NCBI GenBank assembly: GCA_016699465.1 | Contig: CP064977.1 | Span: 542,503-606,502, forward strand | From: Candidatus Campbellbacteria bacterium | GTDB lineage: Bacteria; Patescibacteriota; Minisyncoccia; Phycocordibacterales; EsbW-18 | Reading direction: 5' to 3' | DNA: 64,000 nucleotides | Part shown: positions 1,359-59,798 of the stretch, in pieces | Layout of the letters: every line of letters begins with the position of its first letter | Position numbering within the stretch: the first letter of the stretch is position 1 | Position numbers and translations under genes: made by a program | The notes under the pieces: generated by a model | Told to the model about the DNA's origin: nothing | The model's database searches: none | What the model saw: the letters and a program-made list of their open reading frames with translations, nothing else

Positions 1359-1593
1359 ATATAAAAAATTATTATTACTATTAAGAGCGTGGATAAGTGA
1401 ATAAGTGTGTACTGATAGATGAAATAAGAGTTTTTAAGAACATGATATTTGAATAAGAATGTATAGAACGGAGATATAAAAGGATAAAAAATAGTGTTCT
1501 TATGTTTAGATACTTTTTATTAACATTTGAAACACATTTTGTAATTCACTTGTACATATGTACTCCACACAGTTATACAAGACATATCCACAC
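1359..1593. promoter_or_regulatory. candidate oriC / dnaA-dnaN intergenic region (AT-rich, DnaA-box-like 9-mers)
   Basis: 235 bp AT-rich spacer between dnaA and dnaN. cTTATCCACg (as gtggataag at about 1391-1399) and aTATCCACA (about 1581-1589) match the TTATCCACA consensus 8/9. AT-rich run atataaaaaattattattactatt at 1359-1385. Confidence 0.3.
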
Positions 1594-3309: not shown

Positions 3310-3324
3310 GGCCGCTCTGCCTTC

Positions 3325-7333: not shown

Positions 7334-7360
7334 ACGTATATACTATCACCCTTTTTTATT

Positions 7361-8110: not shown

Positions 8111-8117
8111 AGTGTAG

Positions 8118-10043: not shown

Positions 10044-10046
10044 ATA

Positions 10047-10712: not shown

Positions 10713-10754
10713 GATATTTCTATTGTAGCCGAGAAACTGCGTCTCACCAATGGG

Positions 10755-11174: not shown

Positions 11175-11214
11175 GGTGTTTAAAATTACAATAACAAATA
11201 TCAAATGACAAATA

Positions 11215-11619: not shown

Positions 11620-11664
11620 TTCAAAATTGATATTTGATATTGGATATTTGTTATTGCACCTCCC

Positions 11665-12291
11665 CTACTCCACCGGCTCTCTGTATGGGTCAATTACCTT
11701 TTGCGATACCGCGGGGCCTTCTTTAATCGTGGTTGCAGATGCTGGAATACGAAAACTTTGTTCAAGTTTTGTTTGTGCGCTATCTTTTGGAAGTGTGTGT
11801 GTTATGGATGCTGATGGTACAGAAGATGGTGTTGGTGTGGCGTGTGGTTGCCGTGGTGCGGGTTGTACGCTTGGTTGAACGATAGGGTGTGGTGTTGCCT
11901 GGATGATTGGTTGGGTTGTTGCTGTGGTGGAACTTTCTACAGATGGCGCATGTTCTCCGGTTGGGAACATCTTCATTAACGATTCTCGTACAGGGTGGAA
12001 AATTTCATTTTCCGTATCAATAACGAGCCTCTCGACAACACTGAGTGAAATGTGTAGTCGAGAAGTAAGATTTGAAACGAATGCATCTGGGTGTTCTAAT
12101 CCCAATAACACAAGCATTACTTCGTCCTCAAACATTCCCCCATCGTCAACACGAAGGCCCTCTTTTGTGATGATTTTTCGGACGCGTCCAAGCAAATCGA
12201 GTTCTGCAAAAGCTTTTCGAAGTGACTCGGGTATTTCGGTAAGTCTTTTTTTGATGATGTCGCGGGATTCTTGGTCCATATTTTTATACAC
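11665..12291 (-). CDS. hypothetical protein with Pro/Thr/Gln-rich C-terminal tail
   Basis: 208 aa. Low-complexity tail ...TQPIIQATPHPIVQPSVQPAPRQPHATPTPSSVP. Confidence 0.5.
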   Translation of the reverse strand: MYKNMDQESRDIIKKRLTEIPESLRKAFAELDLLGRVRKIITKEGLRVDDGGMFEDEVMLVLLGLEHPDAFVSNLTSRLHISLSVVERLVIDTENEIFHPVRESLMKMFPTGEHAPSVESSTTATTQPIIQATPHPIVQPSVQPAPRQPHATPTPSSVPSASITHTLPKDSAQTKLEQSFRIPASATTIKEGPAVSQKVIDPYREPVE

Positions 12292-12306
12292 TACACTTAA
12301 CGTTGA

Positions 12307-14643
12307 CTATGGTTTAAAACCAGCCGGTGCTTTTGGTGGTGGAGTTTCTGCGATTATTTCTGGTTCTTTGTTTTGCTCCATTATTTTTTCAATCTCTTTT
12401 GCAATATTCTCTGATGGTTTTTTCTCGCTTCCTGCACGTAATTTGTCCCCCGCAGTTCTCGTTGCAGAAGTGAGTCCACCTGTATATGCCTCACCAATTT
12501 TTGTCTTAGTCAGTTCATTTGCTGATTTGACTGCGTCGGTAATTTTCTTTGCAGATGATTTTAGTTCAATAAAGTTTATTATGTTTTTATCCTTGCCTTC
12601 TTTGTATCCCCTGAGGTTTGTTTCCGCTCTCTCTTTCTGGGCTTCCAGTTGAGCACGTTTTTCAGGGGTGAGGTTGATATTTTCCAACGCCTTTTCAGTC
12701 TTTTTAATGTATGCATTTTGTGCATCAATAACTGCTGAAGTAGTACTTATCAACTTCCTCTGTTCGTCTGTAAGCGCAGCGCTTGTTCGTGCAAGCTCTG
12801 TGCGTGTTTGTGAGCGACCACCCCTCATTTCAGTGAGTATATCTTGTGCCTCTCTGAGTTTTGTTTCATGCTCTGCTTGTTTATCGGTGCCCAATCCTGC
12901 TCTAAGGTTATCTTGTGCCTCTCGCACCTTTGCCTCTTGTGATGCAACCGCTTGATTCTTTCCGTACATCTCTGCTCTCTCTTGAATTCTCTTTGCACCT
13001 GCTTCACGGGAACCAACGAGACCACCCTTATTACCAACCTTTCCTAAATCAGCACCTGCCATGTCAGCGAGCCCTCCAGCAAGTCGTGTTCCGCGGGCAT
13101 CAAACGTTCCTTTTTGTGCCAAGTTTCCGGTGTATGAAAAGGTTTTGCCGATTCCACGTACCCATTTGCTGTTTGACTCAGTCATTTTGCCAACCGTAGC
13201 AGAGTTTGCTAATCTAGCACCCGCTCGTCCAAGAGAGTTGCGCGCCAAGAATGCTGTTCCTCCAAACACCGCACCACCAGCTAGTGTTGAGCCGAGTTTT
13301 GCGACACCCTTTCCAGCATCACCTGAAACAGATTTTGCGATAACAAGCGCAGAGATGAGGAGATAGATGACGATGAAGTATTTGATAAGATCGACGGCGG
13401 TGGTGCTAAGAAAACCTGTGAGGCCTGTACCGGTGGATGCAATAATAATAGACGGATTATTAAAGTTTGGATCTTTAAGGATTTCAAATACAACTAAAAG
13501 TAACGCAAAAAAGATAGGTGCAAAAAATGCCTGCCCCCAGAGTGTGTCCCACCATTTCCCTGCTTGTGATTTGAGTTGCGGTAAAAGTTCACCAATGAAT
13601 GCAATCGGGGACGTAATTATTAAAATAAGAAAAATGACCAGTCGTCCCAAGAGCATAAATGCCATAACAAGAAACATAAACATGGCAATGAGAACAATAA
13701 TAATTGCCATAATTACATCAGTTAATATACTTTTGTCAGCACTTTTTATATTAGCTTCATTTGCGATACCGTTGTCTGAGAGTTCTCCTTTCATGAACTT
13801 CATAACACCCAACTTGTCCATAAATGCACCAGAAAGACCCTGGCTTTCTTCTACTCCCAAAACTGTGCTCTTTGTATCGTATTTTTGTGTGGCGGTATAG
13901 AGTTCAAGGGTGAGGATGTTTGATGTATCAATCACAATTTTTGTGAACAACATACTGAAGTTGATCAGTAGTGCGGCGAGAATAATTTTGGGAATGAGTT
14001 TTGTATTAAAACCAGAGGACGACCACGATCCAAGAATGGTATTGATACCCACAAAGAGGAGTGCAAAGACAAATACAATATTGACGAGGTCTCGGATAAT
14101 CCCCCAACCAGCATTTATTCCAGCGCCGATCCCCCCTTGGGTGTCCATAAATGCACCCATGTGAACTATGGAGAATGAAATACTAGAATCCAAAATATAG
14201 GCAGCTATAGCAAGAAGCCATCCCAATATCTCAAGAACGATATAGAGCATCCACGCAACCAAAACTCGTGGCATGGTTATGATGTCCCAAAAATTTGCTC
14301 CACCGCCTGTTGTTGACATTGCGCCTTTTGCCTCACCGCCAATGCAGGTACTAGATGAGTTTTGCCACGTTCCACCTTTGGCACGACATTCTTCAGGAGT
14401 GCCTGGCGCAGGTGTTGTTTCTCCAGTTGGAGGGTTGGCCGGGGTTGGAGTAGGTGCAGGTGTTGTTTCATTTACTGTTGAGGTTTCGGCTCGTGCAAGG
14501 TGTGTATTGGTTGGTAGTGGAACAGATACAAGAAGAACAACCACAAGAAGAAGTGGCAGTGCCCAATGTATTCTTTTTTTAATCCCCACGAACATTGTTA
14601 CTTTTATGGTACTACATACTCTGCGTTCTGATGTACGCAACAC
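12307..14643 (-). CDS. VirB6/TrbL-like polytopic membrane protein with long coiled-coil/charged C-terminal extension
   Basis: 778 aa. Signal peptide, Pro/Thr linker, at least 6 TM segments, then a Lys/Glu/Ala-rich hydrophilic tail. This architecture is typical of T4SS inner-membrane channel proteins. Assignment by architecture only. Confidence 0.5.
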   Translation of the reverse strand: MLRTSERRVCSTIKVTMFVGIKKRIHWALPLLLVVVLLVSVPLPTNTHLARAETSTVNETTPAPTPTPANPPTGETTPAPGTPEECRAKGGTWQNSSSTCIGGEAKGAMSTTGGGANFWDIITMPRVLVAWMLYIVLEILGWLLAIAAYILDSSISFSIVHMGAFMDTQGGIGAGINAGWGIIRDLVNIVFVFALLFVGINTILGSWSSSGFNTKLIPKIILAALLINFSMLFTKIVIDTSNILTLELYTATQKYDTKSTVLGVEESQGLSGAFMDKLGVMKFMKGELSDNGIANEANIKSADKSILTDVIMAIIIVLIAMFMFLVMAFMLLGRLVIFLILIITSPIAFIGELLPQLKSQAGKWWDTLWGQAFFAPIFFALLLVVFEILKDPNFNNPSIIIASTGTGLTGFLSTTAVDLIKYFIVIYLLISALVIAKSVSGDAGKGVAKLGSTLAGGAVFGGTAFLARNSLGRAGARLANSATVGKMTESNSKWVRGIGKTFSYTGNLAQKGTFDARGTRLAGGLADMAGADLGKVGNKGGLVGSREAGAKRIQERAEMYGKNQAVASQEAKVREAQDNLRAGLGTDKQAEHETKLREAQDILTEMRGGRSQTRTELARTSAALTDEQRKLISTTSAVIDAQNAYIKKTEKALENINLTPEKRAQLEAQKERAETNLRGYKEGKDKNIINFIELKSSAKKITDAVKSANELTKTKIGEAYTGGLTSATRTAGDKLRAGSEKKPSENIAKEIEKIMEQNKEPEIIAETPPPKAPAGFKP

Positions 14644-14649
14644 TGTGTA

Positions 14650-16398
14650 TTATGGTTGAATTCCTTCGCCGACATACGTCATTTCAACATTCAGATTTGA
14701 GAATTCCCATCCAGGTCCAAGTTTTACTTGGTATTCTCCGTTATCATCAGTTACTCCTCCAATGCTAATGTGGAAACTTTGGTTGTTGTTTTCAATAACA
14801 TCAGCGGTTATTCCATCCCATGCGCTCGCAATAATATCGTTCCCTGACTTTATATCTACACCAGCAACTTTTTCAAGTGTGTCGTAGGTATATTCTATAT
14901 GAAGCGTATCACCTACTGCAGGTTCGAATGAAGTTTGCGTTTCTTTGCATGCGCCCGCCAGGTGTGCTTGTGTGACAAGTTTACTTCCATCGGCTCCTTG
15001 AATTTTTAATCCGACTTCTCCGATGAGGTTGTTCCACCACTTATCTCCACGCGCAAGATAAAAGAGTTCGTGGAAGTTGTAACTACCGTCTATGTTGGTA
15101 AACTCTCCAACTTTGACATCAAAACCAACAATTACCTTTGTGTATTTTGTGTCCGTACTCTCATCGCCAAAGTAATAATCACGAACAGTGTCGTCTGCGG
15201 TTGTGGTGAAGAACGTTCCGTTTTCTGAATACGAGATTGGGTCCCCTGCTCCGGATCCGTTGCCATCTTCTGCGGTTGCCTGACATGAGGCACCAATACC
15301 TCCGGTACCATCAGGAATTTCTGTTGCGGAAGGAAGGTTTGCTGGGAATTTGTCGTTAGCGAAGTCGGCTGGGTCGTATCCTGCAAGTCCTTTTTCGCCC
15401 AAGAGAACGTCACGAATGAGGTATGCCATGATGGCGGTAATCATTTCGTTGAGTTCGTCTGCAAACGAGAGACGGTCCATTTGCAAACCTGTTGATTTTG
15501 CAACTTGTTCTTGAATGTATGAGCCAGGAGTCACCGTCCGTTCCGGGTCACAACTTACAGTTCCTTGAGGTGGGCCTTCTTGCGTTTCGTCATATGGTGC
15601 TGGTGGCCCCATACCATCCGCAGGTGTTAGATAACAATCTTGGACTTTTTTAGATAAAAATCCACTTCCAAGAGAAATATCTTTTGTTTGTTCTCCAGCG
15701 GCGTTGATGAGTCGTATCTTTATTTCCATATCAGACTCAAGGTATGCACCATACGGGTTGTTGTATGGGTTGCTTACCATTTCTACCCACCCGTTCCATC
15801 CTCCGGCGTTAAAATCACCGTTCATAAAGTCATCAATGTTGCTCACCGCTCCTGTGAGAGAACACTGAGATGTTATTCGCCCGCTGTTTTGTTGGTATGA
15901 CCGCATCAGTGCAAGTTGAATCTGTGCTTTAAATGGTGAACAGAGGAGGGGGGCTTTTTCGAGAAGGAGTTGTCCCATAACGGCATCTGCGGTTTGAAGC
16001 ATGTGCTGACTAACATTTGTGACGAATACAGGATTTCCTTCAAAACCACTCTGTGCCCAGACGGTAATACTCTTTATCATGTCTTCAATAATAGTATTGA
16101 CCACTTGATAGAGAATGCAGTCGATGGCTTTCTTAACACCGGTTGAGGCCTCTGATCCAGGAAGTGTTGCTGCCGGCATAAGTGCGACTCCTGCAGAAAT
16201 ATATTTCATTGCGGTTGCGACAACAACACATGAGGCAGCTCCGGCGACAAAACCTTTTCCAAGCTCACCAAGTTGAATTCCACCGGCGGCCTCTAGCCGT
16301 TGTATTTTAAGGCCAGTTGAAAGAGAGAGACTGATGGGCATCACCACAAAAAGTGTGATAAGGAAGAGTGTGAGTAGTTTTGTACAAAAAGAGTTCAT
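14650..16398 (-). CDS. membrane-anchored secreted hypothetical protein (N-terminal TM, large extracytoplasmic domain)
   Basis: 582 aa. N-terminal TM LLTLFLITLFVVMPISLSL. No catalytic motif recognised. Confidence 0.5.
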   Translation of the reverse strand: MNSFCTKLLTLFLITLFVVMPISLSLSTGLKIQRLEAAGGIQLGELGKGFVAGAASCVVVATAMKYISAGVALMPAATLPGSEASTGVKKAIDCILYQVVNTIIEDMIKSITVWAQSGFEGNPVFVTNVSQHMLQTADAVMGQLLLEKAPLLCSPFKAQIQLALMRSYQQNSGRITSQCSLTGAVSNIDDFMNGDFNAGGWNGWVEMVSNPYNNPYGAYLESDMEIKIRLINAAGEQTKDISLGSGFLSKKVQDCYLTPADGMGPPAPYDETQEGPPQGTVSCDPERTVTPGSYIQEQVAKSTGLQMDRLSFADELNEMITAIMAYLIRDVLLGEKGLAGYDPADFANDKFPANLPSATEIPDGTGGIGASCQATAEDGNGSGAGDPISYSENGTFFTTTADDTVRDYYFGDESTDTKYTKVIVGFDVKVGEFTNIDGSYNFHELFYLARGDKWWNNLIGEVGLKIQGADGSKLVTQAHLAGACKETQTSFEPAVGDTLHIEYTYDTLEKVAGVDIKSGNDIIASAWDGITADVIENNNQSFHISIGGVTDDNGEYQVKLGPGWEFSNLNVEMTYVGEGIQP

Positions 16399-16407
16399 GA
16401 AAGAGTG

Positions 16408-17421
16408 TTAGTACATGGTAACAAGTAAAAAGCCGTCTTCCAACTTTGTGTAGGTAACCCTTTTTGAAACAAGGAATGATTTAATGTCGCGCAATTTTGA
16501 TGTTGTTGCCTCAATGTTTCCTTGATATTTTTGTAATACAGGAAGAACAGTCACTGAATCTGCCGAAAGATTCTCAAGGCGTTCAAGTATAAGTGTGTTT
16601 GTTTGTATGCCGTTCATGAAAGCAATATATGTTGGAGCAATCTCTTTTGGTACGGGAATAGAGCGAAGTCTGGCGAGTACGATTTTGTAGTGTTCAATAA
16701 CAGGTGCAAGTTTTTTGAGAGATGATACCGCGCCGGTATTTACAAATTCGGCAAGTGCAAAAAATTCATTATTTTGTTCAGACGAGGTGACCTTAAGTGC
16801 TCCAGCAACGGCATTTCCATACGCATGTAGTTGCTCGGGGGTTGCTTGAGAAATAATCGTAAGGTCGCTCAACTGGACCATTTTTTGATCGAGATTTGCT
16901 GGTGTAACGATGGCGTTGCCTAAAAGTGCTGCTACTTGATTTGCGTCATCGGTAGTAAGTGGAACTCCGGCGTTTTTAAAGGCAATAACTTGTTCAAAAA
17001 GTGCTCGAGAAAGGGCGTCGGTTTTGGTCAGGTTTTTATTTTGTTCAAAAAAGGAAAATAAACTACTTGTTGCCGAACTCACGATTTCCTCCTTTGTTTT
17101 TTCTGCGGTTGCCTTTTGATTTTGTACATAGGCAAAATCACTAACACCATCCCCATTTGAATCGCTCTTGGTAGGATCGGTTCCCCAGAGTGACTCCTCC
17201 CAATCTTTAAGGCCATCTGCATCAGAATCTGTTTCACTAAACGTCGTGCGAGTAGCCGTTGAGTTATTTTTGGGTGTGATGGTTGATTCCGAAGTAGGCG
17301 GGTGTGTTTTTAGGACAATTGTGGCAACAATAATCGCAATGGCAATAATACCAATAGCAAAAACGCGTTTGCCTGGTTTGTGTAACGTTAATTCTGATTC
17401 CATACAATGAAAAGTAAACAC
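16408..17421 (-). CDS. membrane-anchored hypothetical protein with Asp-rich calcium-binding-like repeat
   Basis: 337 aa. TM near N-terminus. SETDSDADGLKDWEESLWGTDPTKSDSNGDGVSDF resembles thrombospondin-type-3 / DxDxDG calcium-binding repeats. Confidence 0.5.
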   Translation of the reverse strand: MFTFHCMESELTLHKPGKRVFAIGIIAIAIIVATIVLKTHPPTSESTITPKNNSTATRTTFSETDSDADGLKDWEESLWGTDPTKSDSNGDGVSDFAYVQNQKATAEKTKEEIVSSATSSLFSFFEQNKNLTKTDALSRALFEQVIAFKNAGVPLTTDDANQVAALLGNAIVTPANLDQKMVQLSDLTIISQATPEQLHAYGNAVAGALKVTSSEQNNEFFALAEFVNTGAVSSLKKLAPVIEHYKIVLARLRSIPVPKEIAPTYIAFMNGIQTNTLILERLENLSADSVTVLPVLQKYQGNIEATTSKLRDIKSFLVSKRVTYTKLEDGFLLVTMY

Positions 17422-31740: not shown

Positions 31741-31935
31741 ACCTTGTTACGCGAATGTGCGCGAATGAGAATGCACGCAGATTAACGCAGATTATAGGAG
31801 CTCGTCTTCACATTGCAGATCTGACTTTTGACGTGTCCTCGGCCGAAGGCCTCGGGTGCCTGTTCAAATCCGTATATGCAAAGGCGAGCAATTACCCCTT
31901 TGTAATACTGAAAATATAGCACAAAACACGCTAGT

Positions 31936-31957
31936 GGCTAATTCGTACGAATTAGCC
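31936..31957. repeat. perfect 22-bp palindrome ggctaattcgtacgaattagcc (member of a recurrent hairpin family)
   Basis: Self-complementary. Near-identical copy ggctaattcatgcgaattagcc at 45155-45176. Confidence 0.6.
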
Positions 31958-32235
31958 TGTATACAAGAAGCCCCACAGAAGCGCGGGGCTTCTTGTGGGG
32001 GGGGGTGAAAGAGCTGCGGTTATTCAAGCCATCGGTCTGTGGTTCGATTGGAGCCGTCGGCGTCGCCTCGGGGTTGTTCGAAAGAGGATTCTCCATATCG
32101 ATATGAGTATAGCAAAGTGGGAGGCGTACGGGGGCGTTGCCTTGGTGGTTAGTGTCACTGATTGTCTTTTTGTGTTTTGTGTGGAGAATGGTTCTTGGAA
32201 TGAGGTTCTTCGGGTTCGTGAAAGGAGCTGAGAGT

Positions 32236-32418
32236 ATGGGAGAAGGAAAAACGCCAAGTGCGCGGGTTCAGGAGTATTTGAATAGCGATCAGCCCTCCCG
32301 GTACGTGGTGTTGTACGGAGTGAGGGGTCTCTTCGACCACCTCCCACCCTTTGCCAGCCTCAAGCGGGCATATGCGATGTCCAAGGCGCGTCGTCCGAGG
32401 GCATTGCACAAGAAGTGA
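32236..32418 (+). CDS. hypothetical small basic protein (60 aa) in GC island
   Basis: AGGAG RBS 8 nt upstream of ATG. Terminator hairpin ccccggaccaggttgtccgggg+T-run at about 32441-32468. Confidence 0.3.
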   Translation: MGEGKTPSARVQEYLNSDQPSRYVVLYGVRGLFDHLPPFASLKRAYAMSKARRPRALHKK

Positions 32419-32577
32419 GAGTGGGGGGGGCAGAGTTCCCCCATGCCCCGGACCAGGTTGTCCGGGGTTTTTAGTTCAAAACCAAGGCGTTGTCTTGGTT
32501 GTTGACTTGTCATTTGGCGCGAGCGTGTGTAGAGTGGTGCTTGGACTTGGTCTTCTTACTCGCTAGGGAGGTGTCGA

Positions 32578-32826
32578 GTGCTTGACGAGCGCGACGAGTA
32601 CACTTGGGCGGCAGGGGCGCGGAAGAGACACCGCGAGCGGGGGTGTTTTGGTCACAACCCCCCGCCGGGAACCCCGTCAATTCCGTCTGTGTTTGACGGT
32701 TACCCGACGCCGAGCAAGTGGCGCCGCATCGGGGGAAGTGGCAATGCCGTCAGCTCCGCGGTGGGTGGCGAAGAGCCTGCCCAGACCCCCGAGGAACCGG
32801 AAGATGTTGTTGGTGCCCCCGTGTGA
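32578..32826 (+). CDS. hypothetical small protein (GTG start) in GC island
   Basis: GGGAGG RBS 7 nt upstream of GTG. GC-rich hairpin downstream at about 32886-32925. Weak. Confidence 0.25.
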   Translation: MLDERDEYTWAAGARKRHRERGCFGHNPPPGTPSIPSVFDGYPTPSKWRRIGGSGNAVSSAVGGEEPAQTPEEPEDVVGAPV

Positions 32827-32932
32827 ACGGGGGTTTCGTTTTGTTTGTATGAGGTGTTGCTCTGGGTTTGAATAAAAAAGGAAGCCCCGCGCGATGCGCG
32901 AGGCTCGTGCGGGGGGGGCGAGGATGAAACGG

Positions 32933-33355
32933 TTACTGCCACCGGTCGTAGTAGTACCAATAGAACATCTCTGCGACCTTCTCCGGCTCATCTCGTCCGG
33001 CGATTTGGTCGAGACTTTCTGCTAGATCCTTCTGTGAGAGGTAATCACGGCTAGCGCCCGCGTACTTCACGAGGAACATGGGCGTACCATCATCTAGCGG
33101 TTCTACTGGGTTGATGATGGCAATCAGGGGAGGGCTCGAGATTATTCCCACCGCGGGAAACATGACGTGGTTGAGCTTTTGCTCCATCTCGGCCGTATGG
33201 ACCTTCGCAGCTCTTGTTGTGGCGGGGTCAGGTCCCGTGGCGAGTGTTTTCCAGTTGGGCACTACCCAGTAATACATCATAAACATGATGCAAACCAGGA
33301 AGAACCCCGCAGACACCTTCACGGCGAAGCGAAACCGTCTTGTGTTTGAGTCCAT
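32933..33355 (-). CDS. single-pass membrane hypothetical protein (141 aa) in GC island
   Basis: Start at MDSNTRRF with GGGAGA RBS. TM FFLVCIMFMMYYWVV. Preceded by conserved 80-bp promoter/operator element. Confidence 0.45.
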   Translation of the reverse strand: MDSNTRRFRFAVKVSAGFFLVCIMFMMYYWVVPNWKTLATGPDPATTRAAKVHTAEMEQKLNHVMFPAVGIISSPPLIAIINPVEPLDDGTPMFLVKYAGASRDYLSQKDLAESLDQIAGRDEPEKVAEMFYWYYYDRWQ

Positions 33356-33384
33356 TTTTCTCCCTTGGCCGAAGGCCTTGCGCA

Positions 33385-33464
33385 CTGCATTTTTGTACGA
33401 CAACGAACAACCCAAATCCGCGCAGATTCTGCGCTTAAAATACAAAGAAGTCAATCCGAGGCAA
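33385..33464. repeat. 80-bp conserved upstream element, copy 1 (putative promoter TTGACT...CAGAAT with palindromic operator GCGCAGA-T-TCTGCGC)
   Basis: Identical apart from a GC dinucleotide to copy at 34465-34546. Lies immediately 5' of the 32933-33355 gene on the minus strand. Confidence 0.7.
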
Positions 33465-33529
33465 CGCCTCCGATCAACAAAACAAAGCGCCGACCTCGGG
33501 GAGGTCGGCGTTGGAAGAGGTACATCTGA

Positions 33530-34471
33530 TCAGTCGGCCTTGTTGGTCCCGAGCTTGGCGAGCGCCCACTCGATCCGCCCGCGCCGCTCGAGCGCCCGGT
33601 ACACCTTGTGCTCGATGTGCCCCACGACGGGGCCGAGCACGAGGCCCACCAGCGCGTAGGCAACGAGGTTCTCGTTGAGCCAAGCTCCCACCGCCATGGC
33701 GATGGACAGCGAGAACAGGGTTGCCAACGCCGCCGCTCGCCGTCCTTCCTCGTTCGTGTACTTCACGAAGAGAAGGATGGTGCGGGTGAAGGCGGAGAAC
33801 AACTGTAGGAGGTCACGCAGGATCAGTGTGGGGTGTGCGAGGAGCTCCCGAAGATCTTCGGCGCAGGCCGAGAGGGTGTGGGTGAGACTCTTCGCCAAGG
33901 CCTTGATGAGCCAAAGTAGCGCCCTGCCACCCCAGTACGCAACGGCAATCGGATTGAGGTATTTCAGGAGGGCCTTTCTGTAGAGAGCAACTATGAACCT
34001 CCTAGTAGGAAGGTCGTCAAACGGCCACAACTCCATAGCCGAAAGAAGAAAACCAAATACTGGGGCCAGAAAGGCACCAAGCGCGATTGCTCCGGGCAAT
34101 GTGTTGGCCAAGTTGTCGAACAACCAGAGGGCGCTTGTCATGTACAGGTTGAAGAAGAAAGAGAGGAGGGTCATCCACACGGACAGAGTCAGATAGACTT
34201 TTATCCGTTGCATCTCCTCCGGCATACCGACCATCGTCTCCTTGACCGCGCGCACGAAAGCGACGCACGCGCTCTGCCAGTCGTAGGCGATCCATCCCAC
34301 GACGGCTCCGACGATGGCGGCCAGGGCGAGCGACGCCCACGGCCAGCCGAACTGGGCCACGAAGGCCAGTCCGAGCAGTACACCTGTGAGGCATCCCGTG
34401 AGAATCCCCCAAAACGGACTCTTTTGCACGACTTCCCTTCCTTTCTCGGCCCGTAGGCCATCGAACTGCAT
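33530..34471 (-). CDS. polytopic integral membrane hypothetical protein (313 aa) in GC island
   Basis: At least 7 predicted TM segments, high-GC codon usage. Preceded by conserved 82-bp promoter/operator element. Confidence 0.5.
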   Translation of the reverse strand: MQFDGLRAEKGREVVQKSPFWGILTGCLTGVLLGLAFVAQFGWPWASLALAAIVGAVVGWIAYDWQSACVAFVRAVKETMVGMPEEMQRIKVYLTLSVWMTLLSFFFNLYMTSALWLFDNLANTLPGAIALGAFLAPVFGFLLSAMELWPFDDLPTRRFIVALYRKALLKYLNPIAVAYWGGRALLWLIKALAKSLTHTLSACAEDLRELLAHPTLILRDLLQLFSAFTRTILLFVKYTNEEGRRAAALATLFSLSIAMAVGAWLNENLVAYALVGLVLGPVVGHIEHKVYRALERRGRIEWALAKLGTNKAD

Positions 34472-34546
34472 TTTTGTACGACAACGAACAACCCAAATCC
34501 GCGCAGATTCTGCGCTTAAAATACAAAGAAGTCAATCCGAGGCAAC
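34465..34546. repeat. 82-bp conserved upstream element, copy 2
   Basis: tgcatttttgtacgacaacgaacaacccaaatccgcgcgcagattctgcgcttaaaatacaaagaagtcaatccgaggcaac. A third, degenerate copy lies at about 34945-35030 upstream of the 34604-34927 gene. Confidence 0.7.
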
Positions 34547-34603
34547 ACCTTTGTTCAACAAAACAAAAGCCCCGCGCGAGTGCGGGGCTCGTGCGGGGGC
34601 GCT

Positions 34604-34927
34604 TCAGTCGTTGATTGTTGTGATGGTGAACGGGCTCACCAGAATCGCTTCTGATGCCCCATCGAGTTCGACCGCCACAATTCGTTCGCTTCCCCCATTC
34701 CCGAGATTCCCGTTGCTCCAGATACCAAGGACCTTTCCTTTGAGTCCTTTGGGCAGTTGAGCTTCAGCGGTGGTGATGAACCGATCACCCTCGCGAATGA
34801 CTCGCGTGCTACCTCGTGGAATGATTCCGGCGTAGAACTCGGCGCTATCGAGGATGAGATCTCCCCACATGCAGCGCTTCAGAGTCTCGCCTTCTCGTAG
34901 TTGAATTTGATTCCCGGATTCTGACAT
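34604..34927 (-). CDS. small hypothetical protein (107 aa), paralog of 35078-35395
   Basis: MSESGNQIQLREGETLKRCMWG...IREGDRFITTAEAQLPKGLKGKVLGIW aligns with MSDVQEIRK...GETTSRCLWG...IRIGDRVVSRGIWYIPKGSTGTVVEI. Own promoter-like element and terminator (gccccgccgacgttctgtcggcggggc at about 35042-35071). Confidence 0.45.
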   Translation of the reverse strand: MSESGNQIQLREGETLKRCMWGDLILDSAEFYAGIIPRGSTRVIREGDRFITTAEAQLPKGLKGKVLGIWSNGNLGNGGSERIVAVELDGASEAILVSPFTITTIND

Positions 34928-35077
34928 CGCCCCGCTCCTTGACCCGTAGGCCTCAGTGCTGCGTTTCTTGTACGACAACGAACACGTAAATCTGCGGTGA
35001 TTTTGCACTTCATGTGAGAAGAAGTCAATCCATCGACAAAAAAGAAGCCCCGCCGACGTTCTGTCGGCGGGGCGGGG

Positions 35078-35395
35078 TTAGACACTTTTCGGAAGGATGT
35101 CGTCCGGAATAACATACGCGCGTATGGTTGCCCCATCGAAGAGAACGTTGATGAGGTCTCCTGGAGAGAGTGTGTTCATCTCGATCTCTACCACTGTTCC
35201 GGTACTTCCCTTTGGGATGTACCAGATGCCTCTAGAGACAACGCGGTCTCCAATTCGAATGGTGTATCCTTTTGTGTTGAAGCCGACGCACTTTCCGTTC
35301 GAAACGATGAAAATCCCCCACAGACATCGTGAGGTGGTTTCTCCCGCCAGGAGAACCGGCTCAACTTCTTTGCGGATTTCTTGTACGTCGCTCAT
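35078..35395 (-). CDS. small hypothetical protein (105 aa), paralog of 34604-34927
   Basis: See paralog. Upstream TTGACA-17-TATTGT promoter-like sequence. Downstream terminator. Confidence 0.45.
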   Translation of the reverse strand: MSDVQEIRKEVEPVLLAGETTSRCLWGIFIVSNGKCVGFNTKGYTIRIGDRVVSRGIWYIPKGSTGTVVEIEMNTLSPGDLINVLFDGATIRAYVIPDDILPKSV

Positions 35396-35520
35396 GGGAC
35401 TCCTTTCGAGTCTCTGTGTTGAACAACAATTCTGGCGAAACAATAGTCCGATATGCGTGCTTTGTCAACGAAGATGAAGAAGCCCTGCCGACGTTCTGTC
35501 GGCGGGGCGTTCTTCTTTTG

Positions 35521-36075
35521 TTATTTCTGTTCTTGCGGAGGTCGTTTGCGATCGTTGCGTCCACCTCGGTACCCCATGAGGTACTTACGAGGGTCTTCGT
35601 CGAGGTTTGTGAAATGATCTGCAGCCTCGATGAGTTTTGCGGATGTTGAACGTCCGAATGCGATTGCTTCTACTTGGCACCCTTCACTAATTTGAAGATA
35701 CTGCACAAGTGGAACATAGTCTCCGTCCCCAGATACAATGACAACGGCATCCAATTTTGGTGCGAGTTTCACTGCGTCCATGGCGAGTCCAACGTCCCAG
35801 TCGGCCTTTTTTGCACCTCCTGCGAAAATTTGTAAATCTTTTGTCTTCACCTCAATACCCATCTTGGTAAGAGCTTCAAAAAATGTTTTTTCTTCACCTG
35901 ATTCAGTTGAAATAACGTATGCGATTGCACGAACGAGCGGTCGCTCCCCTATTGCATCTTTAACGATTGCTGCGAAATTAACGCGAGCGTTGTAGAGATG
36001 TCGTGCACTGTGATAGAGATTTTGCGCGTCGATAAAAACGGCAACGCGCTGTGCCTTCTGTTTGATTATGGTCAT
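35521..36075 (-). CDS. NYN-domain (LabA-like, PIN-related) putative RNase
   Basis: RVAVFIDAQNLYHSARHL...VVIVSGDGDYVPLV matches the NYN domain acidic core. 184 aa. Confidence 0.7.
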   Translation of the reverse strand: MTIIKQKAQRVAVFIDAQNLYHSARHLYNARVNFAAIVKDAIGERPLVRAIAYVISTESGEEKTFFEALTKMGIEVKTKDLQIFAGGAKKADWDVGLAMDAVKLAPKLDAVVIVSGDGDYVPLVQYLQISEGCQVEAIAFGRSTSAKLIEAADHFTNLDEDPRKYLMGYRGGRNDRKRPPQEQK

Positions 36076-36192
36076 AAAATGATTTTAATAAGCTCAAAAT
36101 TCAAATTTCAAAATCCAAAAAAGTAATGCTCAATGTGTTATATATGTAAATTTTTTGAGCTTTGGATTTTATACTTTGAGCTTACGGTACGA

Positions 36193-45535: not shown

Positions 45536-46999
45536 CTATTCAACGTGGTGTTTTGAGCGAATTTTTTTGACTTCTTTTTCCTCGGCTTCTTCTTGCGCAT
45601 CTCTCCCCTTTTCACCAAGCACGCGGAGTTCTGTATCAGGTAGTTTTGCAAGCGCGTGTGCACGAGTTTCCAAATACTCTTTTGTATTTTGTGTTGGGTC
45701 ATCAAGTACATCTTCAAGAAGTGCGTGGAGAATCCATCCTATACGTGGTCCAGGGCGCTCTCCAAGGAGCTCCATGAGTTGTTTTCCATCAATCTGTAGC
45801 ATTCCTACCGAAACAGGATCACGCATCACCTCATCAATCATCGCTTTATACTTACGCAAACGATACGGTTGTTCTTTTGGTCGTCCTGTCCCGATTCGGT
45901 CGCACACACGCATGTTTAAAATATCTTCAACGTTCTCTGGTCCAACATTTCGAATGAGACGACGCACTGCGGAGTGCGTAATTTGTTCTGTGTCTGAGAA
46001 AAACATGTGCCACCGAACAAGTTTCACTACTTTATCAACAACCTCTGTTGGAAATCGCAATTCTTGCATGCGTTTGCGTGCAAGTCGTGAGCCAACAACT
46101 TCGTGTCCATGGAATGACCAATCGTTTTTCTTTGTATCCATTGCCTTTGTGTGTGGTTTTGCAATGTCGTGGAAGAGTGCCGCGAGACGAAGCTCAAGTG
46201 AGAACTTTTTATCAGCAGCCGCTTGCAGAGTACGTCCAATGTGCTCAAAAACCGTGTACGAATGGGCCTGATTCTGGCCTACCCCAATTCCCTTTTCTAA
46301 TTCTGGAACAACATATGAAAGCAATTTGTGTTCATGGAGAAGCTGTATTCCTCGAAATGGACTGTCTGACAAAAGCATTTTAGTAAATTCATCACGAATT
46401 CGTTCAGCTGAGATGTGTGCAAGATCATCTGCATGTTTGAGAATTGCATCTGATGTCTTTTTTTCAATTTCAAAACTAAGTTCTGTTGCAAAACGAACAG
46501 CACGCAACATGCGAAGTGCATCTTCGTTAAATCGTTTTTCTGCGTCACCAATCGCACGGATCAGTGTATCTTCTAAATCTTTTTTTCCATCGTACAAATC
46601 AACGAGTGTGTTGGTTGTTGTATCAAATGCAAACGCATTAATAGTAAAATCACGTCGTGCCAAGTCTTCTTCAAGTGATGTACCAAAAGAAACCTCGTCA
46701 GGGTGTCGTTTGTCGCTATACCCACTCTCCTTTCGATACGGTGTGACCTCAATTGCTTTGAGTGTTGCATCTTCTGTTTCATCGTTGACTACACCAACGG
46801 TTCCATATTCGTTTTCGTAGAAGGTGTGCGGAAAAAGCGCCTGGATTTGTTCAGGTGTTGCGTTTGTGGTCACATCCCAATCTTTTGGTGTTCGATCAAG
46901 ATACATATCTCGAACACAACCACCAACAAGATATGCTTCATACCCACTATGTTGGAGAAGAGCCACAATTCCACGCGCTTCTTTTGGTAGATCTTTCAT
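45536..46999 (-). CDS. cca: CCA-adding tRNA nucleotidyltransferase with C-terminal HD domain
   Basis: GGCVRDMYLDRTPKDWDVTT (pol-beta-like NT motif), HD domain HDIAKP. 487 aa. Confidence 0.85.
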   Translation of the reverse strand: MKDLPKEARGIVALLQHSGYEAYLVGGCVRDMYLDRTPKDWDVTTNATPEQIQALFPHTFYENEYGTVGVVNDETEDATLKAIEVTPYRKESGYSDKRHPDEVSFGTSLEEDLARRDFTINAFAFDTTTNTLVDLYDGKKDLEDTLIRAIGDAEKRFNEDALRMLRAVRFATELSFEIEKKTSDAILKHADDLAHISAERIRDEFTKMLLSDSPFRGIQLLHEHKLLSYVVPELEKGIGVGQNQAHSYTVFEHIGRTLQAAADKKFSLELRLAALFHDIAKPHTKAMDTKKNDWSFHGHEVVGSRLARKRMQELRFPTEVVDKVVKLVRWHMFFSDTEQITHSAVRRLIRNVGPENVEDILNMRVCDRIGTGRPKEQPYRLRKYKAMIDEVMRDPVSVGMLQIDGKQLMELLGERPGPRIGWILHALLEDVLDDPTQNTKEYLETRAHALAKLPDTELRVLGEKGRDAQEEAEEKEVKKIRSKHHVE

Positions 47000-47520: not shown

Positions 47521-47868
47521 TTTTATTGATGCTTTGATGGACACGTCCACCACAAAGAACAGTATATCTATTTTTCGTCAATTTACCATATGTTTATAAC
47601 AATTTTAGGATACTAGTATATTCTTCGACCATGCATTTTTGAGAGTCGGTCACTGTTAAAGGTCTTTATATTAAAAGACAGTTAGTTTTTCATATGGTCT
47701 TTAATGAATGCGTATTTTAAAGGGTAAAATGTGGAAAACTGTGGACAATTAGGGGGATATGTGTAAAAGACAGGCAATTGGACACATGTAAAATGGTGGC
47801 AAAAATGACAATAATATAGCCTAGTTAAGCCGTTTTATGTATTTTGTCTCTGATAATGTCCGATATAT

Positions 47869-48318
47869 ATGTTTCACGTGAAACAACCACTAAACTGTTA
47901 CACGTGTAACGGTATTTTTATGAAAAATGACCCAAAACACATACAAATAGGGAAAATTGGAGAAGAATTGGCTTGTCTGTTTCTTGTGAAACGAGGATTT
48001 AAGATCGTGGAAAGACACTATTTAAAGAAATGTGGAGAGATAGATATTATTGCAAACAAAGACAAAGTTTTAAGATTTGTTGAAGTTAAGTGCGTTTCAC
48101 GCGAAACAGGGAATAGTGTAGTTTCACGTGAAACACAGAAAAGGCCAGAGGAAAACGTTACACGTGAAAAGCTTGAGCGACTTTCTCGAACAATTCAAAC
48201 ATATTTAGCAGAGAAACGTATTTCACGTGAAACACGGTATCAGGTAGATGTGGTTGCTATTCGCCTCAATCTAAAGGACAAAACAGCGCGCACACTATTT
48301 ATTGAGAATGTCCTTTAA
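47869..48318 (+). CDS. YraN-family (UPF0102) putative endonuclease carrying in-frame palindrome-derived VSRET-type repeats
   Basis: IGKIGEELACLFLVKRGFKIVERHYLKKCGEIDIIANKDKVLRFVEVK is the YraN core. Start may be the internal MKNDPKH. Six GTTWCACGTGWAAC palindromes lie in and just upstream of the gene. Confidence 0.55.
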   Translation: MFHVKQPLNCYTCNGIFMKNDPKHIQIGKIGEELACLFLVKRGFKIVERHYLKKCGEIDIIANKDKVLRFVEVKCVSRETGNSVVSRETQKRPEENVTREKLERLSRTIQTYLAEKRISRETRYQVDVVAIRLNLKDKTARTLFIENVL

Positions 48319-48488
48319 AAATAATAGAGGTTGGAAGTTAGAGGTGAGAGGTTAGAGATTAGTTTGGGAGTTGGTTTAGAAAAGAAAACAGCCCCCGGTT
48401 TCCCGTTGGCTGTGCGTGAGCTTCGGCTCACGACTTCGGAGATTCTGTTGCCAGGCTCTCCGCGGGCTCCGTAAGTGCTGGGTCAGGA

Positions 48489-48812
48489 TCATGCGCTGAC
48501 CTCAATTTCGAGGGTGGCATCCGGAAAGTGACGTCGAACAATTTCTTCGGTCACTTCACGCGGTTCCATCCCGAAATCCGCACTTTCCTCGAAAATCCAA
48601 ATGTGCTTGAAGTCGGCAAATGCTTGAATCTTACCTCCTCCAAGACACTGGATTTTCTGGTTACCCACCTCCTCGCGGAGCTTCTTGAAGAGTTCTCTGT
48701 GGTAGCCCTCTCCGATACGAAGCACCACAAGGGGTGACGACCCAACCTCGGCGAGAATGAACTTGCGGTCAATCTGGCCGAAATCGTTCCAAACCACGAG
48801 TTCGTTGGTCAT
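48489..48812 (-). CDS. hypothetical protein (107 aa)
   Basis: Clean ORF with plausible hairpin downstream. No family recognised. Confidence 0.45.
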   Translation of the reverse strand: MTNELVVWNDFGQIDRKFILAEVGSSPLVVLRIGEGYHRELFKKLREEVGNQKIQCLGGGKIQAFADFKHIWIFEESADFGMEPREVTEEIVRRHFPDATLEIEVSA

Positions 48813-51360: not shown

Positions 51361-51639
51361 TTATTTTCCCTTCACTGCTTCTTTGAGCGCCTTTGCTGCT
51401 GTGAACTTTGGTACTTTTGTTGCTGGAACTTGTACCATCGCTCCTGTGCGTGGGTTGCGTGCTGTTCGTGCTGCGCGTGCGCGAACTTTGAATGCACCCA
51501 ATCCTGCGATTGCAACTTCACCTCCGCTTTTGAGCGTTGATGTAATTGAATCAATGACTGTGTCCATGATGCGCTCTGCGTCTGCCTTGGTAACTCCGTG
51601 GCGTTCTGCAATGCGCTCAACAAGTGCTGCTTTATTCAT
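51361..51639 (-). CDS. hup: HU-family nucleoid DNA-binding protein
   Basis: MNKAALVERIAERHGVTKADAERIMDTVIDSITSTLKSGGEVAIAGLGAFKVRARAARTARNPRTG is a canonical HU/IHF fold sequence. Confidence 0.8.
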   Translation of the reverse strand: MNKAALVERIAERHGVTKADAERIMDTVIDSITSTLKSGGEVAIAGLGAFKVRARAARTARNPRTGAMVQVPATKVPKFTAAKALKEAVKGK

Positions 51640-51839
51640 ATGATTTTTTATAACCACTAGTGGTTGGTAATGGTTTGTGTTCGACCGTATATAAAAGTAT
51701 AGCAACGAAGCCGTTTTTTTAGCAATAGCTGTAGCATTTTGTGTGGATAGAGAATGTGGTTTGACAAAATATATTGATTAAGTTATAACTGTCGCCAGAC
51801 GAGTCGCTTGAACGACTCACGTGCTGATAGAGGGAAATA

Positions 51840-59628: not shown

Positions 59629-59798
59629 ATAAAGTGGAAGTTAGATGTGAGAAGTTGGTAATTGATTTTAGTTTTGCAGAAGGTGTGGTCTCGAAAGCCC
59701 CAGACGTTTCACGGCATGGTGTGAAACGAGAAATCTTGACTGTAGTATATTGTGTGATGGACTTTATCTAGATTTTATCTCTGTCGATATATCCTTAT

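What the first reader, a model, noticed from the sequence alone, without database searches (positions are those of the whole stretch)
47860..48240. Six copies of a CACGTG-core 14-16 bp palindrome inside and just upstream of a YraN-like gene, translated as VSRET-type peptide repeats
The palindromes TGTTTCACGTGAAACA (47873-47888), GTTACACGTGTAAC (47897-47910), GTTTCACGCGAAAC (about 48097), GTTTCACGTGAAAC (about 48122), GTTACACGTGAAAA (about 48156) and ATTTCACGTGAAAC (about 48218) occur within 370 bp. Two lie in the putative promoter/N-terminus. The rest fall in-frame in the middle of the coding region, where GTT TCA CGT GAA ACA reads as VSRET. They expand the usual YraN core by about 10 aa. A dense array of identical palindromes is unexpected inside a conserved small gene. 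It suggests invasion by a miniature palindromic element, an embedded regulator-binding array (the adjacent TrmB-like regulator is a candidate), or restriction-site-like selfish repeats.
Basis: seen in the sequence. Interest (0 to 1): 0.6.

Follow-up and report, generated by a model that had tools for sequence, protein, structure and literature searches.

The report
Chromosome centromere (parS) array inside yraN
The repeated palindrome is the standard bacterial centromere sequence (parS, the docking site of the chromosome-segregation protein ParB), packed four to seven times into and just upstream of a small gene near the replication origin of a Candidatus Campbellbacteria genome. The same gene carries these sites in most related species, so this is an ordinary kind of element in a neat, previously undescribed setting.

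Summary
Six of the seven matches to TGTTTCACGTGAAACA (≤3 mismatches) in 64 kb lie in 47870-48234 (0.77 expected for the whole window).

That 16-mer is exactly the canonical chromosomal parS, the ParB-binding centromere. The host is a Candidatus Campbellbacteria (Patescibacteria) chromosome. The array lies about 46 kb from dnaA-dnaN, the probable oriC.

In 80 related species, 191 of 192 parS-like sites in 1.2 Mb lie between -3 kb and +1 kb of the yraN start. They fall in yraN, in its non-coding leader and in the divergent CCA-enzyme gene.

Selection acts on the DNA, not the peptide:
- In the palindromes Arg is CGT in 28 of 34 cases (background 18%) and Val is GTT in 89%, while a neighbouring invariant Val uses mixed codons.
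- Synonymous recoding of the genes predicts 3.4 in-gene sites; 79 are observed.

Only two reading frames of parS lack a stop codon (VSRET and FHVK), and both are used. The VSRET segments sit in loops that make this YraN 10-13 residues longer than the family profiles.

The TrmB-like neighbour is not conserved (10 of 80 species). The mobile-element and restriction-site readings fail.

I could not test whether the genome encodes ParB. No ParA or ParB lies in the window or within 10 kb of yraN in the relatives.

Verdict: a canonical parS array, a new member of a known kind, of moderate interest.

The parts
47870..47885 (.). S1: perfect 16-bp parS (TGTTTCACGTGAAACA) in the non-coding leader, 35-50 nt upstream of the yraN ATG
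   Evidence: 0 mismatches. A ≤2-mismatch site lies in the 150 nt upstream of yraN in 42 of 81 species, against 9 of 1098 control upstream regions.
47896..47911 (.). S2: symmetric parS variant TGTTACACGTGTAACG (T>A at position 5, A>T at position 12, plus the outermost base), 9-24 nt upstream of the ATG
   Evidence: 3 mismatches. Positions 5 and 12 are the tolerant ones in the clade consensus and in the B. subtilis consensus TGTTNCACGTGAAACA. The same variant recurs in L013. It was also flagged as a hairpin followed by a T-run.
47978..47993 (.). S3: degenerate parS-like site TGTTTCTTGTGAAACG read as F21-L-V-K (second open register). Probably weak or non-binding because the core is CTTGTG.
   Evidence: 3 mismatches. 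The orthologous '+34' site (GTTTCTCGTGAAACA) recurs in many species. Val23 is GTG in 75% of species against a 22% background.
48093..48108 (.). S4: parS CGTTTCACGCGAAACA, read as V59-S-R-E-T63
   Evidence: 2 mismatches. Orthologous '+149' site. Val59 is GTT in 89% of 81 species, while the invariant Val56 uses mixed codons.
48120..48135 (.). S5: parS AGTTTCACGTGAAACA, read as V68-S-R-E-T72, in the lineage-specific loop
   Evidence: 1 mismatch. Orthologous '+173' site. Val68 is GTT in 84%. In the model the loop 62-75 has pLDDT below 50 at residues 64-73.
48156..48171 (.). S6: weak parS-like site CGTTACACGTGAAAAG (4 mismatches), read as V80-T-R-E-K84. It overlaps a conserved YraN motif (family consensus NVHxxK) and is the least convincing binding site.
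   Evidence: Read directly from the sequence. Thr81-Arg82-Glu83 are His-Pro-Trp in most homologues. VTREK is limited to the closest relatives.
48219..48234 (.). S7: parS TATTTCACGTGAAACA, read as I101-S-R-E-T105, in the loop between helix 82-98 and strand 106-117
   Evidence: 1 mismatch. Orthologous '+278' site in L001-L003 and L037. Structure model.
47920..48318 (+). yraN (UPF0102 family, predicted PD-(D/E)xK nuclease fold), the host gene of the in-frame sites
   Evidence: Pfam PF02021 E = 7.4e-20. NCBIfam YraN profiles. 100% identical to P0001, 'YraN family protein [Candidatus Campbellbacteria bacterium]'.
45536..46999 (-). Divergent CCA-adding enzyme gene, the conserved partner of yraN. In many relatives it carries further parS-like sites at about residues 77-103, read as [D/N]VSxET. 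It has none in this window.
   Evidence: Pfam PolyA_pol, PolyA_pol_RNAbd and HD domains. Adjacent and divergent in 67 of 80 loci. Sites within it.
1359..1593 (.). Probable oriC (the dnaA-dnaN spacer: 30% GC, DnaA-box-like 9-mers at 1388 and 1584). Context only; it sets the distance of about 46 kb to the array.
   Evidence: dnaN 258-1358 and dnaA 1594-3120. Boxes. Sequence and composition. rpmH-rnpA-yidC diverge from dnaA.

Best explanation
The array is the chromosomal centromere of this Campbellbacteria genome: a cluster of parS sites.

Shown here:
- The repeat is the canonical parS 16-mer.
- It is tightly clustered and essentially unique in 64 kb.
- It lies in the origin domain.
- It is conserved at orthologous positions across the Parcubacteria/Paceibacteria.
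- It is maintained by selection on the DNA itself, in non-coding leader positions and at synonymous codon positions.

Inferred from established knowledge of ParABS systems:
- ParB dimers recognise each palindrome through their helix-turn-helix domains, bind CTP, close into clamps and slide onto flanking DNA. This builds a partition complex over the cca-yraN region.
- That complex is moved by ParA and/or recruits SMC condensin, so the newly replicated origin regions are organised and separated.

Why the sites look like peptide repeats: one of the three reading frames of the palindrome contains TGA on either strand. A site inside a gene can therefore only be read as V-S-R-E-T or F-H-V-K. yraN holds sites in both registers. 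The VSRET copies sit in surface loops, including a lineage-specific loop that lengthens the protein by about 10-13 residues, where they are tolerated.

Sites S1, S4, S5 and S7 (0-2 mismatches) and probably S2 are the likely binders. S3 and S6 are probably weak.
For: - Identity: S1 equals TGTTTCACGTGAAACA, which the literature gives as the chromosomal parS. The B. subtilis consensus is TGTTNCACGTGAAACA.
- Clustering: 6 of 7 window matches fall within 365 bp, against 0.77 expected.
- Origin domain: dnaN, dnaA and rpmH-rnpA-yidC are in the same window. The array is about 46 kb from the dnaA-dnaN spacer, about 5.7% of the 811,376-bp contig. dnaA-dnaN lies 3.7-8 kb from yraN in L008, L011 and L075. 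[quoted passage not shown]
- Clade-wide conservation: in 80 species-representative loci, sites at ≤2 mismatches reach 2.97 per kb at yraN against 0.059 per kb in the flanks. 191 of 192 lie between -3 kb and +1 kb. 73 of 81 species have at least one.
- Non-coding evidence: a ≤2-mismatch site lies in the 150 nt upstream of yraN in 42 of 81 species, against 9 of 1098 controls.
- Codon evidence: within V-S-R-E-T/N motifs, Arg is CGT in 28 of 34 (background 0.18; AGA, background 0.26, is never used), Val is GTT in 28 of 29 (0.35), Ser is TCA in 20 of 27 (0.23) and Thr is ACA in 17 of 21 (0.35). The third position of Val59 and Val68 is T in 89% and 84%, while the invariant Val56 is mixed.
- Recoding simulation: 79 in-gene sites (≤2 mismatches) observed against 3.4 +/- 1.7, maximum 9.
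- Central residue: it varies among R, H, C, W, G, D, P and Q while the palindrome arms stay constant.
- Clade consensus: tGTT(T/a)CA(C/t)(G/a)TGA(A/t)ACa is the same in non-coding and coding copies.
- Position in the protein: the sites map to loops of the predicted structure.
Against: - No ParB or ParA gene was found. There is no Pfam hit among about 50 window ORFs. There is no tblastn hit at E < 0.01 with validated Spo0J and Soj probes in the window plus 1.2 Mb of related loci, and no GERRxRA motif.
- In many bacteria parAB lies next to parS and oriC, so this absence is mildly unexpected. I could not examine the rest of the genome.
- No paper in the searched library documents ParB or parS in Patescibacteria.
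- Binding is not demonstrated.
- Several copies (S3, S6, and many orthologous sites with CATGTG or CACATG cores) may bind poorly. Part of the 'array' may be decaying or serve as half-sites.
- Retrieval of the loci used one peptide pattern ending in 'VS' and kept the 80 best matches. This slightly favours proteins with the first motif, though not particular codons.
Confidence: 0.85

Rival explanations
1. The repeats are a functional peptide motif of the YraN protein (VSRET-type repeats selected at the protein level), and the palindromic DNA is a by-product.
For: VSRE[TN]-type peptides occur at fixed alignment positions in 83 of 120 homologues, and the family consensus reads VEVKTVSRExxxxVSRET. 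S6 (VTREK) overlaps a conserved YraN motif region.
Against: - Synonymous recoding of the same proteins gives 3.4 +/- 1.7 sites against 79 observed.
- Codons are fixed to the parS bases, while neighbouring invariant residues use mixed codons.
- The best-conserved copy is non-coding.
- The same DNA motif recurs in the unrelated cca gene and in a second reading register (FLVK).
- The central residue varies radically while the arms are kept.
- The segments lie in low-confidence loops.
Confidence: 0.03
2. The array is an operator for a transcription factor other than ParB that controls yraN. Candidates are the adjacent TrmB-like regulator or YraN itself.
For: Two copies lie between the candidate promoter region and the start codon. 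A TrmB-family gene lies 700 bp downstream. Dimeric regulators bind palindromes.
Against: - A TrmB-like gene is near yraN in only 10 of 80 species, at variable distance and on either strand.
- The sequence is identical to the pan-bacterial parS rather than to any clade-specific operator.
- Sites extend through the coding region and into the neighbouring cca gene, up to 2-3 kb away. That pattern fits a centromere zone better than an operator.
- YraN has a nuclease-like fold with no known sequence-specific DNA-binding role.
Confidence: 0.05
3. The genome has no canonical ParB. The conserved palindromes are read by a different, unidentified protein, or act through DNA structure (cruciforms) at the origin domain.
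For: No ParA or ParB in the 64 kb origin-proximal window, nor within 10 kb of yraN in 80 species. No literature on ParB in this phylum.
Against: - Exact identity with a consensus that ParB proteins of many phyla recognise would be an unlikely coincidence.
- The variation pattern (outer bases, positions 5 and 12, transitions in the central CG) matches that of known parS sets.
- Only about 8% of this genome, and about 3% of each relative, could be inspected.
Confidence: 0.06
4. The copies are a miniature palindromic mobile element or restriction-site-like selfish repeats that invaded the gene.
For: Short perfect palindromes with a CACGTG core, at locally high density.
Against: - Copies are at orthologous codon positions across species with 44-66% identical YraN.
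- There are no dispersed copies: 1 chance-level match elsewhere in the window, and 1 site in about 0.85 Mb of outer flanks.
- 16 bp is far below the size of a MITE, and there are no flanking repeats.
- CACGTG outside the cluster is at the expected frequency.
Confidence: 0.01

Closest known systems
Bacillus subtilis parS sites (Spo0J/ParB binding; consensus TGTTNCACGTGAAACA; 10 sites, 8 in the origin domain)
   Same: Same 16-bp palindrome, several copies in the origin domain, and tolerance of 1-2 mismatches. From my own knowledge: the founding parS lies inside a coding sequence, spo0J itself, and is read in the same register (N-V-P-R-E-T). That peptide is visible in the Spo0J sequence validated.
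   Different: The B. subtilis sites are spread over hundreds of kb, one per locus. Here 4-7 copies are packed into 365 bp of one small gene and its leader. No parAB operon is nearby.
Tight origin-proximal parS clusters, e.g. Pseudomonas aeruginosa parS1-4 and Streptococcus pneumoniae's four sites (documented in the review); Caulobacter, Myxococcus and Corynebacterium clusters are from my own knowledge
   Same: Several near-consensus sites close to oriC act together as one nucleation zone. ParB spreads over tens of kb from them (a 50-kb peak for P. aeruginosa parS1-4).
   Different: Those clusters span several kb to tens of kb and usually adjoin parAB. Here spacings are 26-115 bp, the sites lie inside coding sequence, and the host genes (cca, yraN) are conserved carriers across a whole class of Patescibacteria.
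Half-parS sites (GTTTCAC/GTTCCAC) bound by some ParBs
   Same: Degenerate copies here (S3, S6, and orthologous sites with a damaged core) keep one or both heptamer arms.
   Different: Half-sites in P. aeruginosa are dispersed genome-wide in the hundreds. Here GTTTCAC occurs only 11 times in 64 kb, and the degenerate copies are confined to the centromere zone.
Noc-binding sites (NBS) and plasmid or phage centromere repeat arrays
   Same: Arrays of short palindromes or iterons that nucleate a ParB-family protein.
   Different: From my own knowledge, the NBS consensus (ATTTCCCGGGAAAT) and plasmid centromeres differ in sequence, and NBS are dispersed away from the terminus. The sequence here is the chromosomal parS, and the context is chromosomal housekeeping genes.

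Membership tests
Chromosomal parS (centromere of a type Ia ParABS system) | 16-bp inverted repeat matching TGTTNCACGTGAAACA | tested here: met
   S1 has 0 mismatches, S5 and S7 have 1, S4 has 2. The consensus is as given in the literature.
Chromosomal parS (centromere of a type Ia ParABS system) | [quoted passage not shown] | tested here: met
   dnaA, dnaN and rpmH-rnpA-yidC lie in the same window. The distance is about 46 kb on an 811,376-bp contig. dnaA lies 3.7-8 kb from yraN in three relatives. oriC itself is inferred, not proven.
Chromosomal parS (centromere of a type Ia ParABS system) | Rare in the genome, far above chance locally, and under purifying selection as DNA | tested here: met
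   (79 observed against 3.4 expected after synonymous recoding). Only 64 kb of this genome could be counted.
Chromosomal parS (centromere of a type Ia ParABS system) | A cognate ParB (ParBc N-terminal domain plus HTH) encoded in the same genome | not testable with these tools
   None in the window or within 10 kb of yraN in 80 relatives (probes validated).
Chromosomal parS (centromere of a type Ia ParABS system) | Specific ParB binding and CTP-dependent spreading from the site | not testable with these tools
   Needs EMSA or BLI, or ChIP-seq.
Miniature inverted-repeat transposable element / dispersed palindromic repeat | Many dispersed copies, non-orthologous insertion sites, flanking target duplications | tested here: not met
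   Copies are confined to one zone and sit at orthologous codon positions across 81 species.
Operator array of the neighbouring TrmB-family regulator | Conserved co-occurrence of the regulator gene with the sites | tested here: not met
   TrmB-like gene in 10 of 80 loci at variable positions, against sites in 73 of 81.
YraN / UPF0102 protein family (the host gene) | Match to PF02021 and the NCBIfam YraN profiles, with the conserved G-E-x-D ... E-V-K core | tested here: met
   Pfam 71.5 bits against a cut-off of 23.6. The NCBIfam hits are below their equivalog cut-offs but span the full length. Invariant G39, E40, D42, E55, V56 and K57. PDB 3FOV matches at E = 4e-7.

The most novel reading that the evidence does not exclude
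The link between the centromere and yraN is functional rather than incidental. One version: Paceibacteria lack a canonical ParB, and another protein reads the palindromes. Another version: ParB occupancy of the leader and body of yraN couples expression of this Hjc-like predicted nuclease (and of the divergent CCA enzyme) to the state of the partition complex. Either would make yraN part of the segregation or origin-maintenance machinery. In both versions, a cis-acting DNA element kept inside two housekeeping genes across a whole bacterial class has created and fixed a lineage-specific protein loop.
Probability: 0.1. Interest if true: 0.7.

Novelty: new member of a known kind. Interest (0 to 1): 0.38.

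Why it matters
- It identifies the probable chromosomal centromere of a Candidate Phyla Radiation lineage. The searched literature holds nothing on ParB/parS in this phylum.
- It gives a simple marker for the origin domain in fragmented Parcubacteria genomes assembled from metagenomes: the cca-yraN pair carrying parS.
- It is a clean, quantifiable case of a DNA-binding site constraining codon choice, and apparently loop content, of a protein over deep evolutionary time.
- It explains the recurrent VSRET and MFHVK(Q/H) peptides, and the spurious N-terminal extensions, that gene callers produce at such sites.
- It does not reveal a new mechanism.

Tried and rejected
- Contig look-ups to walk along the genome failed for dnaN, the 271-aa ORF, NusA and P0001. 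All four were 'not on record'.
- The single genome-contig scan went to yraN loci, so ParB could not be sought genome-wide. I ran no further search on a typed ParB. Only the 120 best hits are listed, and those would be close relatives of the probe rather than Patescibacteria proteins.
- Literature searches for parS or ParB with Patescibacteria, Parcubacteria or CPR, and for YraN with parS, found nothing relevant. One candidate paper referred to host genes. Livny et al. 2007 is not held.
- Rfam found no RNA family at the array or in the spacer after yraN.
- The promoter and terminator scan was not significant. It only flagged S2 and S7 as hairpins followed by T-runs. An RNA-hairpin or attenuator role for S2 is possible, but it does not explain the in-gene and cca copies.
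- DnaA boxes do not cluster at the array beyond one adjacent pair, so I do not read the yraN leader as oriC.
- The peptide-repeat, MITE, restriction-site and TrmB readings were rejected, as set out under the rival explanations.
Full report
**1. The observation**

I scored them against TGTTTCACGTGAAACA.

| Site | Coordinates | Sequence | Mismatches |
|---|---|---|---|
| S1 | 47870-47885 | TGTTTCACGTGAAACA | 0 |
| S2 | 47896-47911 | TGTTACACGTGTAACG | 3 |
| S3 | 47978-47993 | TGTTTCTTGTGAAACG | 3 |
| S4 | 48093-48108 | CGTTTCACGCGAAACA | 2 |
| S5 | 48120-48135 | AGTTTCACGTGAAACA | 1 |
| S6 | 48156-48171 | CGTTACACGTGAAAAG | 4 |
| S7 | 48219-48234 | TATTTCACGTGAAACA | 1 |

S6 was read directly from the sequence.
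- At ≤3 mismatches the whole 64-kb window has 7 matches, 6 of them here. Dinucleotide-preserving shuffles give 0.77 +/- 0.93, and none reaches 7.
- The bare hexamer CACGTG is unremarkable outside the cluster: 22 copies against 17 +/- 4 expected.
Otherwise the description is accurate.

**2. The host gene and the frames**

- The gene is yraN, 47920-48318 on the + strand (Pfam UPF0102, E = 7.4e-20). It is 100% identical to an NCBI protein of a Candidatus Campbellbacteria bacterium on an 811,376-bp contig.
- S1 and S2 lie upstream of that start codon. S4, S5, S6 and S7 are read as V59SRET, V68SRET, V80TREK and I101SRET.
- S3 is read in a different register, as F21LVK.
- This follows from the palindrome itself. 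The register TGT-TTC-ACG-TGA contains a stop on either strand, so only V-S-R-E-T and F-H-V-K are possible inside a gene.
- The protein spans 10-13 more residues than the NCBIfam YraN profiles. Its alignment to the solved homologue 3FOV stops at residue 61.
- In an AlphaFold model (mean pLDDT 85.6) residues 62-75 form a low-confidence loop (pLDDT below 50 at 64-73). ISRET lies in the loop between helix 82-98 and strand 106-117.

**3. What the sequence is**

- TGTTTCACGTGAAACA is the canonical chromosomal parS, the centromere-like site bound by ParB/Spo0J. Thirteen papers in the library use exactly this string for parS.
- The review PMC7022226 gives the B. subtilis consensus as TGTTNCACGTGAAACA. 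[quoted passage not shown]
- The window also holds dnaN (258-1358), dnaA (1594-3120), rpmH (3176-3310), rnpA and yidC.
- The dnaA-dnaN spacer is 30% GC and has DnaA-box-like 9-mers.
- The array is therefore about 46 kb from the probable origin, about 5.7% of the contig length.

**4. Related genomes**

- A scan of species-representative genomes with a YraN alignment returned 80 loci with up to 10 kb of flank on each side. All are from Parcubacteria/Paceibacteria-type Patescibacteria: Campbell-, Kaiser-, Nomura-, Wolfe-, Adler-, Taylor- and Zambryskibacteria, among others.
- parS-like sites (≤2 mismatches) occur at 2.97 per kb in yraN and its leader, against 0.059 per kb in the flanks.
- Of 192 such sites in 1.2 Mb, 191 lie between -3 kb and +1 kb of the yraN start. 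None lies beyond +1 kb.
- 73 of 81 species have at least one site. The window's array (4 sites at ≤2 mismatches, 6 at ≤3) is at the dense end of the distribution.
- The sites recur at fixed places: the non-coding leader, the FLVK codons, the two VSRE[TN] positions, the ISRET position, and about residues 77-103 of the divergently transcribed CCA-adding enzyme gene. That gene neighbours yraN in 67 of 80 species.
- dnaA-dnaN lies 3.7-8 kb from yraN in three of the species.

**5. DNA or peptide?**

VSRET-type peptides are widespread in the homologues (83 of 120; consensus VEVKTVSRExxxxVSRET). Four results show that the DNA is the selected object.

- The best-conserved copy is non-coding. A ≤2-mismatch site lies within 150 nt upstream of yraN in 42 of 81 species, against 9 of 1098 control upstream regions.
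- Codon choice is fixed to the parS bases:

| Residue | parS codon | Observed | Background |
|---|---|---|---|
| Arg | CGT | 28 of 34 | 0.18 (AGA, 0.26, never used) |
| Val | GTT | 28 of 29 | 0.35 |
| Ser | TCA | 20 of 27 | 0.23 |
| Thr | ACA | 17 of 21 | 0.35 |

  In the codon alignment Val59 and Val68 are GTT in 89% and 84% of species, and Val23 is GTG in 75%. The invariant Val56 three codons away uses mixed codons.
- Recoding each gene synonymously with its own locus's codon usage gives far fewer in-gene sites than observed:

| Mismatches allowed | Expected after recoding | Observed |
|---|---|---|
| ≤1 | 0.4 | 14 |
| ≤2 | 3.4 | 79 |
| ≤3 | 14.7 | 147 |

- The middle residue of the peptide varies radically (R, H, C, W, G, D, P, Q) while the palindrome arms are kept. 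The site consensus is the same for coding and non-coding copies: tGTT(T/a)CA(C/t)(G/a)TGA(A/t)ACa.

**6. Mechanism**

- The best-supported reading is that this is the parS cluster, the centromere, of the chromosome.
- By analogy with characterised systems, ParB dimers nucleate on the strong sites: S1, S5, S7, S4 and probably S2, whose changes are at the tolerant positions 5 and 12. They close into CTP-bound clamps and slide onto neighbouring DNA. The resulting complex is segregated by ParA and/or loads SMC.
- These steps are inferred, not shown.
- S1 and S2 lie between a weak promoter-like region and the start codon. ParB could therefore also dampen yraN transcription; that is speculation.

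**7. The main gap**

- No ParA or ParB gene is in the window (about 50 ORFs scanned).
- tblastn with Spo0J and Soj found none in the window or the 80 loci. No GERRxRA motif is present.
- The rest of the genome could not be reached, and the searched literature is silent on ParB in this phylum.
- A reader protein is therefore inferred only from the identity and conservation of the site.

**8. Rivals**

- The TrmB-like neighbour is not a conserved partner: 10 of 80 species, at variable positions.
- A mobile-element origin conflicts with the orthologous, in-frame, non-dispersed copies.
- A restriction-related origin conflicts with normal CACGTG frequencies.
- A protein-motif origin conflicts with the codon and recoding tests.

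**9. Comparison and novelty**

- The element is a member of the chromosomal parS class by sequence, position and selection. ParB presence and binding remain untested.
- Precedents exist for coding parS. From my own knowledge, the B. subtilis site inside spo0J is read N-V-P-R-E-T, a peptide present in the validated Spo0J sequence. Tight origin-proximal clusters are also known.
- What appears undescribed is the clade-wide anchoring of the centromere in the cca-yraN gene pair of Parcubacteria, the packing of 4-7 sites into 365 bp, and the imprint on the YraN loop sequence.
- I rate it a new member of a known kind, of moderate interest.

Noticed in passing
window 31900-35500: A GC-rich block (0.50-0.64 against about 0.43 elsewhere) has only short overlapping ORFs in all six frames under code 11. 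With TGA read as sense, a 714-codon frame opens on the - strand (32936-35077): three ORFs separated by single in-frame TGAs. There are no Pfam or Rfam matches. A NYN-domain gene (35524-36084, -) sits at its edge. Unexplained; it could be foreign DNA, a decayed gene or an unknown large RNA.
   Followed up: partly
window 48319-48488 (- strand): The convergent spacer between yraN and the Ocnus/Janus-like gene folds into three stable hairpins (one with a C(UUCG)G loop, two with GNRA-like loops) followed by a U-run. MFE is -44.3 kcal/mol, z = -3.2 against shuffles. No Rfam family matches. It is probably a terminator, possibly a small RNA.
   Followed up: partly
window 47730-47748 (- strand): Two adjacent DnaA-box-like 9-mers (TTTTCCACA and TTGTCCACA, one mismatch each) lie about 120 bp upstream of the first parS, in the tRNA-Gly-yraN spacer. 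They could be chance or a DnaA-box cluster next to the centromere.
   Followed up: no
window 5713-17421: A type IV secretion-like cluster (T4SS pilin 5713-6612, TraG/VirB4-like P-loop ATPase 8118-10043, several large ORFs without family matches) lies directly beside rpmH-rnpA-yidC and dnaA.
   Followed up: no
window 51361-51705 (-): An HU-family nucleoid protein gene is a conserved downstream neighbour of yraN (37 of 80 loci, mostly 1.3-7 kb away). It belongs to a conserved block XerC-ExoIII-cca / yraN ... HU-RNase Y-ClpP-trigger factor.
   Followed up: partly
window 47869-47919: An ATG inside S1 opens an in-frame N-terminal extension (MFHVKQPLNCYTCNGIF) of yraN. This 'MFHVK' start is created by the parS palindrome and can mislead gene callers. 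NCBI's protein starts at 47920.
   Followed up: yes
L057 440-1078: In one relative a SAM-methyltransferase-like ORF (motif VLELGCGNGRD) lies immediately upstream of yraN, on the same strand. It carries three parS-like sites read as IVSRET, VFHVKD and DVSLET. This shows that whichever gene occupies the zone acquires sites in both open registers.
   Followed up: partly
window 59706-59727: The two parS half-sites GTTTCAC and GTGAAAC occur 8 nt apart, as a split palindrome, in the spacer between the pyrophosphatase and nusA genes. It is not a parS match and may be a terminator hairpin.
   Followed up: no
window 48489-48812 (-): A Janus/Ocnus-family protein (PF05005, E = 1.3e-10; from my own knowledge, the family of the eukaryote-type 14-kDa phosphohistidine phosphatase) is encoded next to yraN. 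It is absent from all 80 related loci.
   Followed up: no
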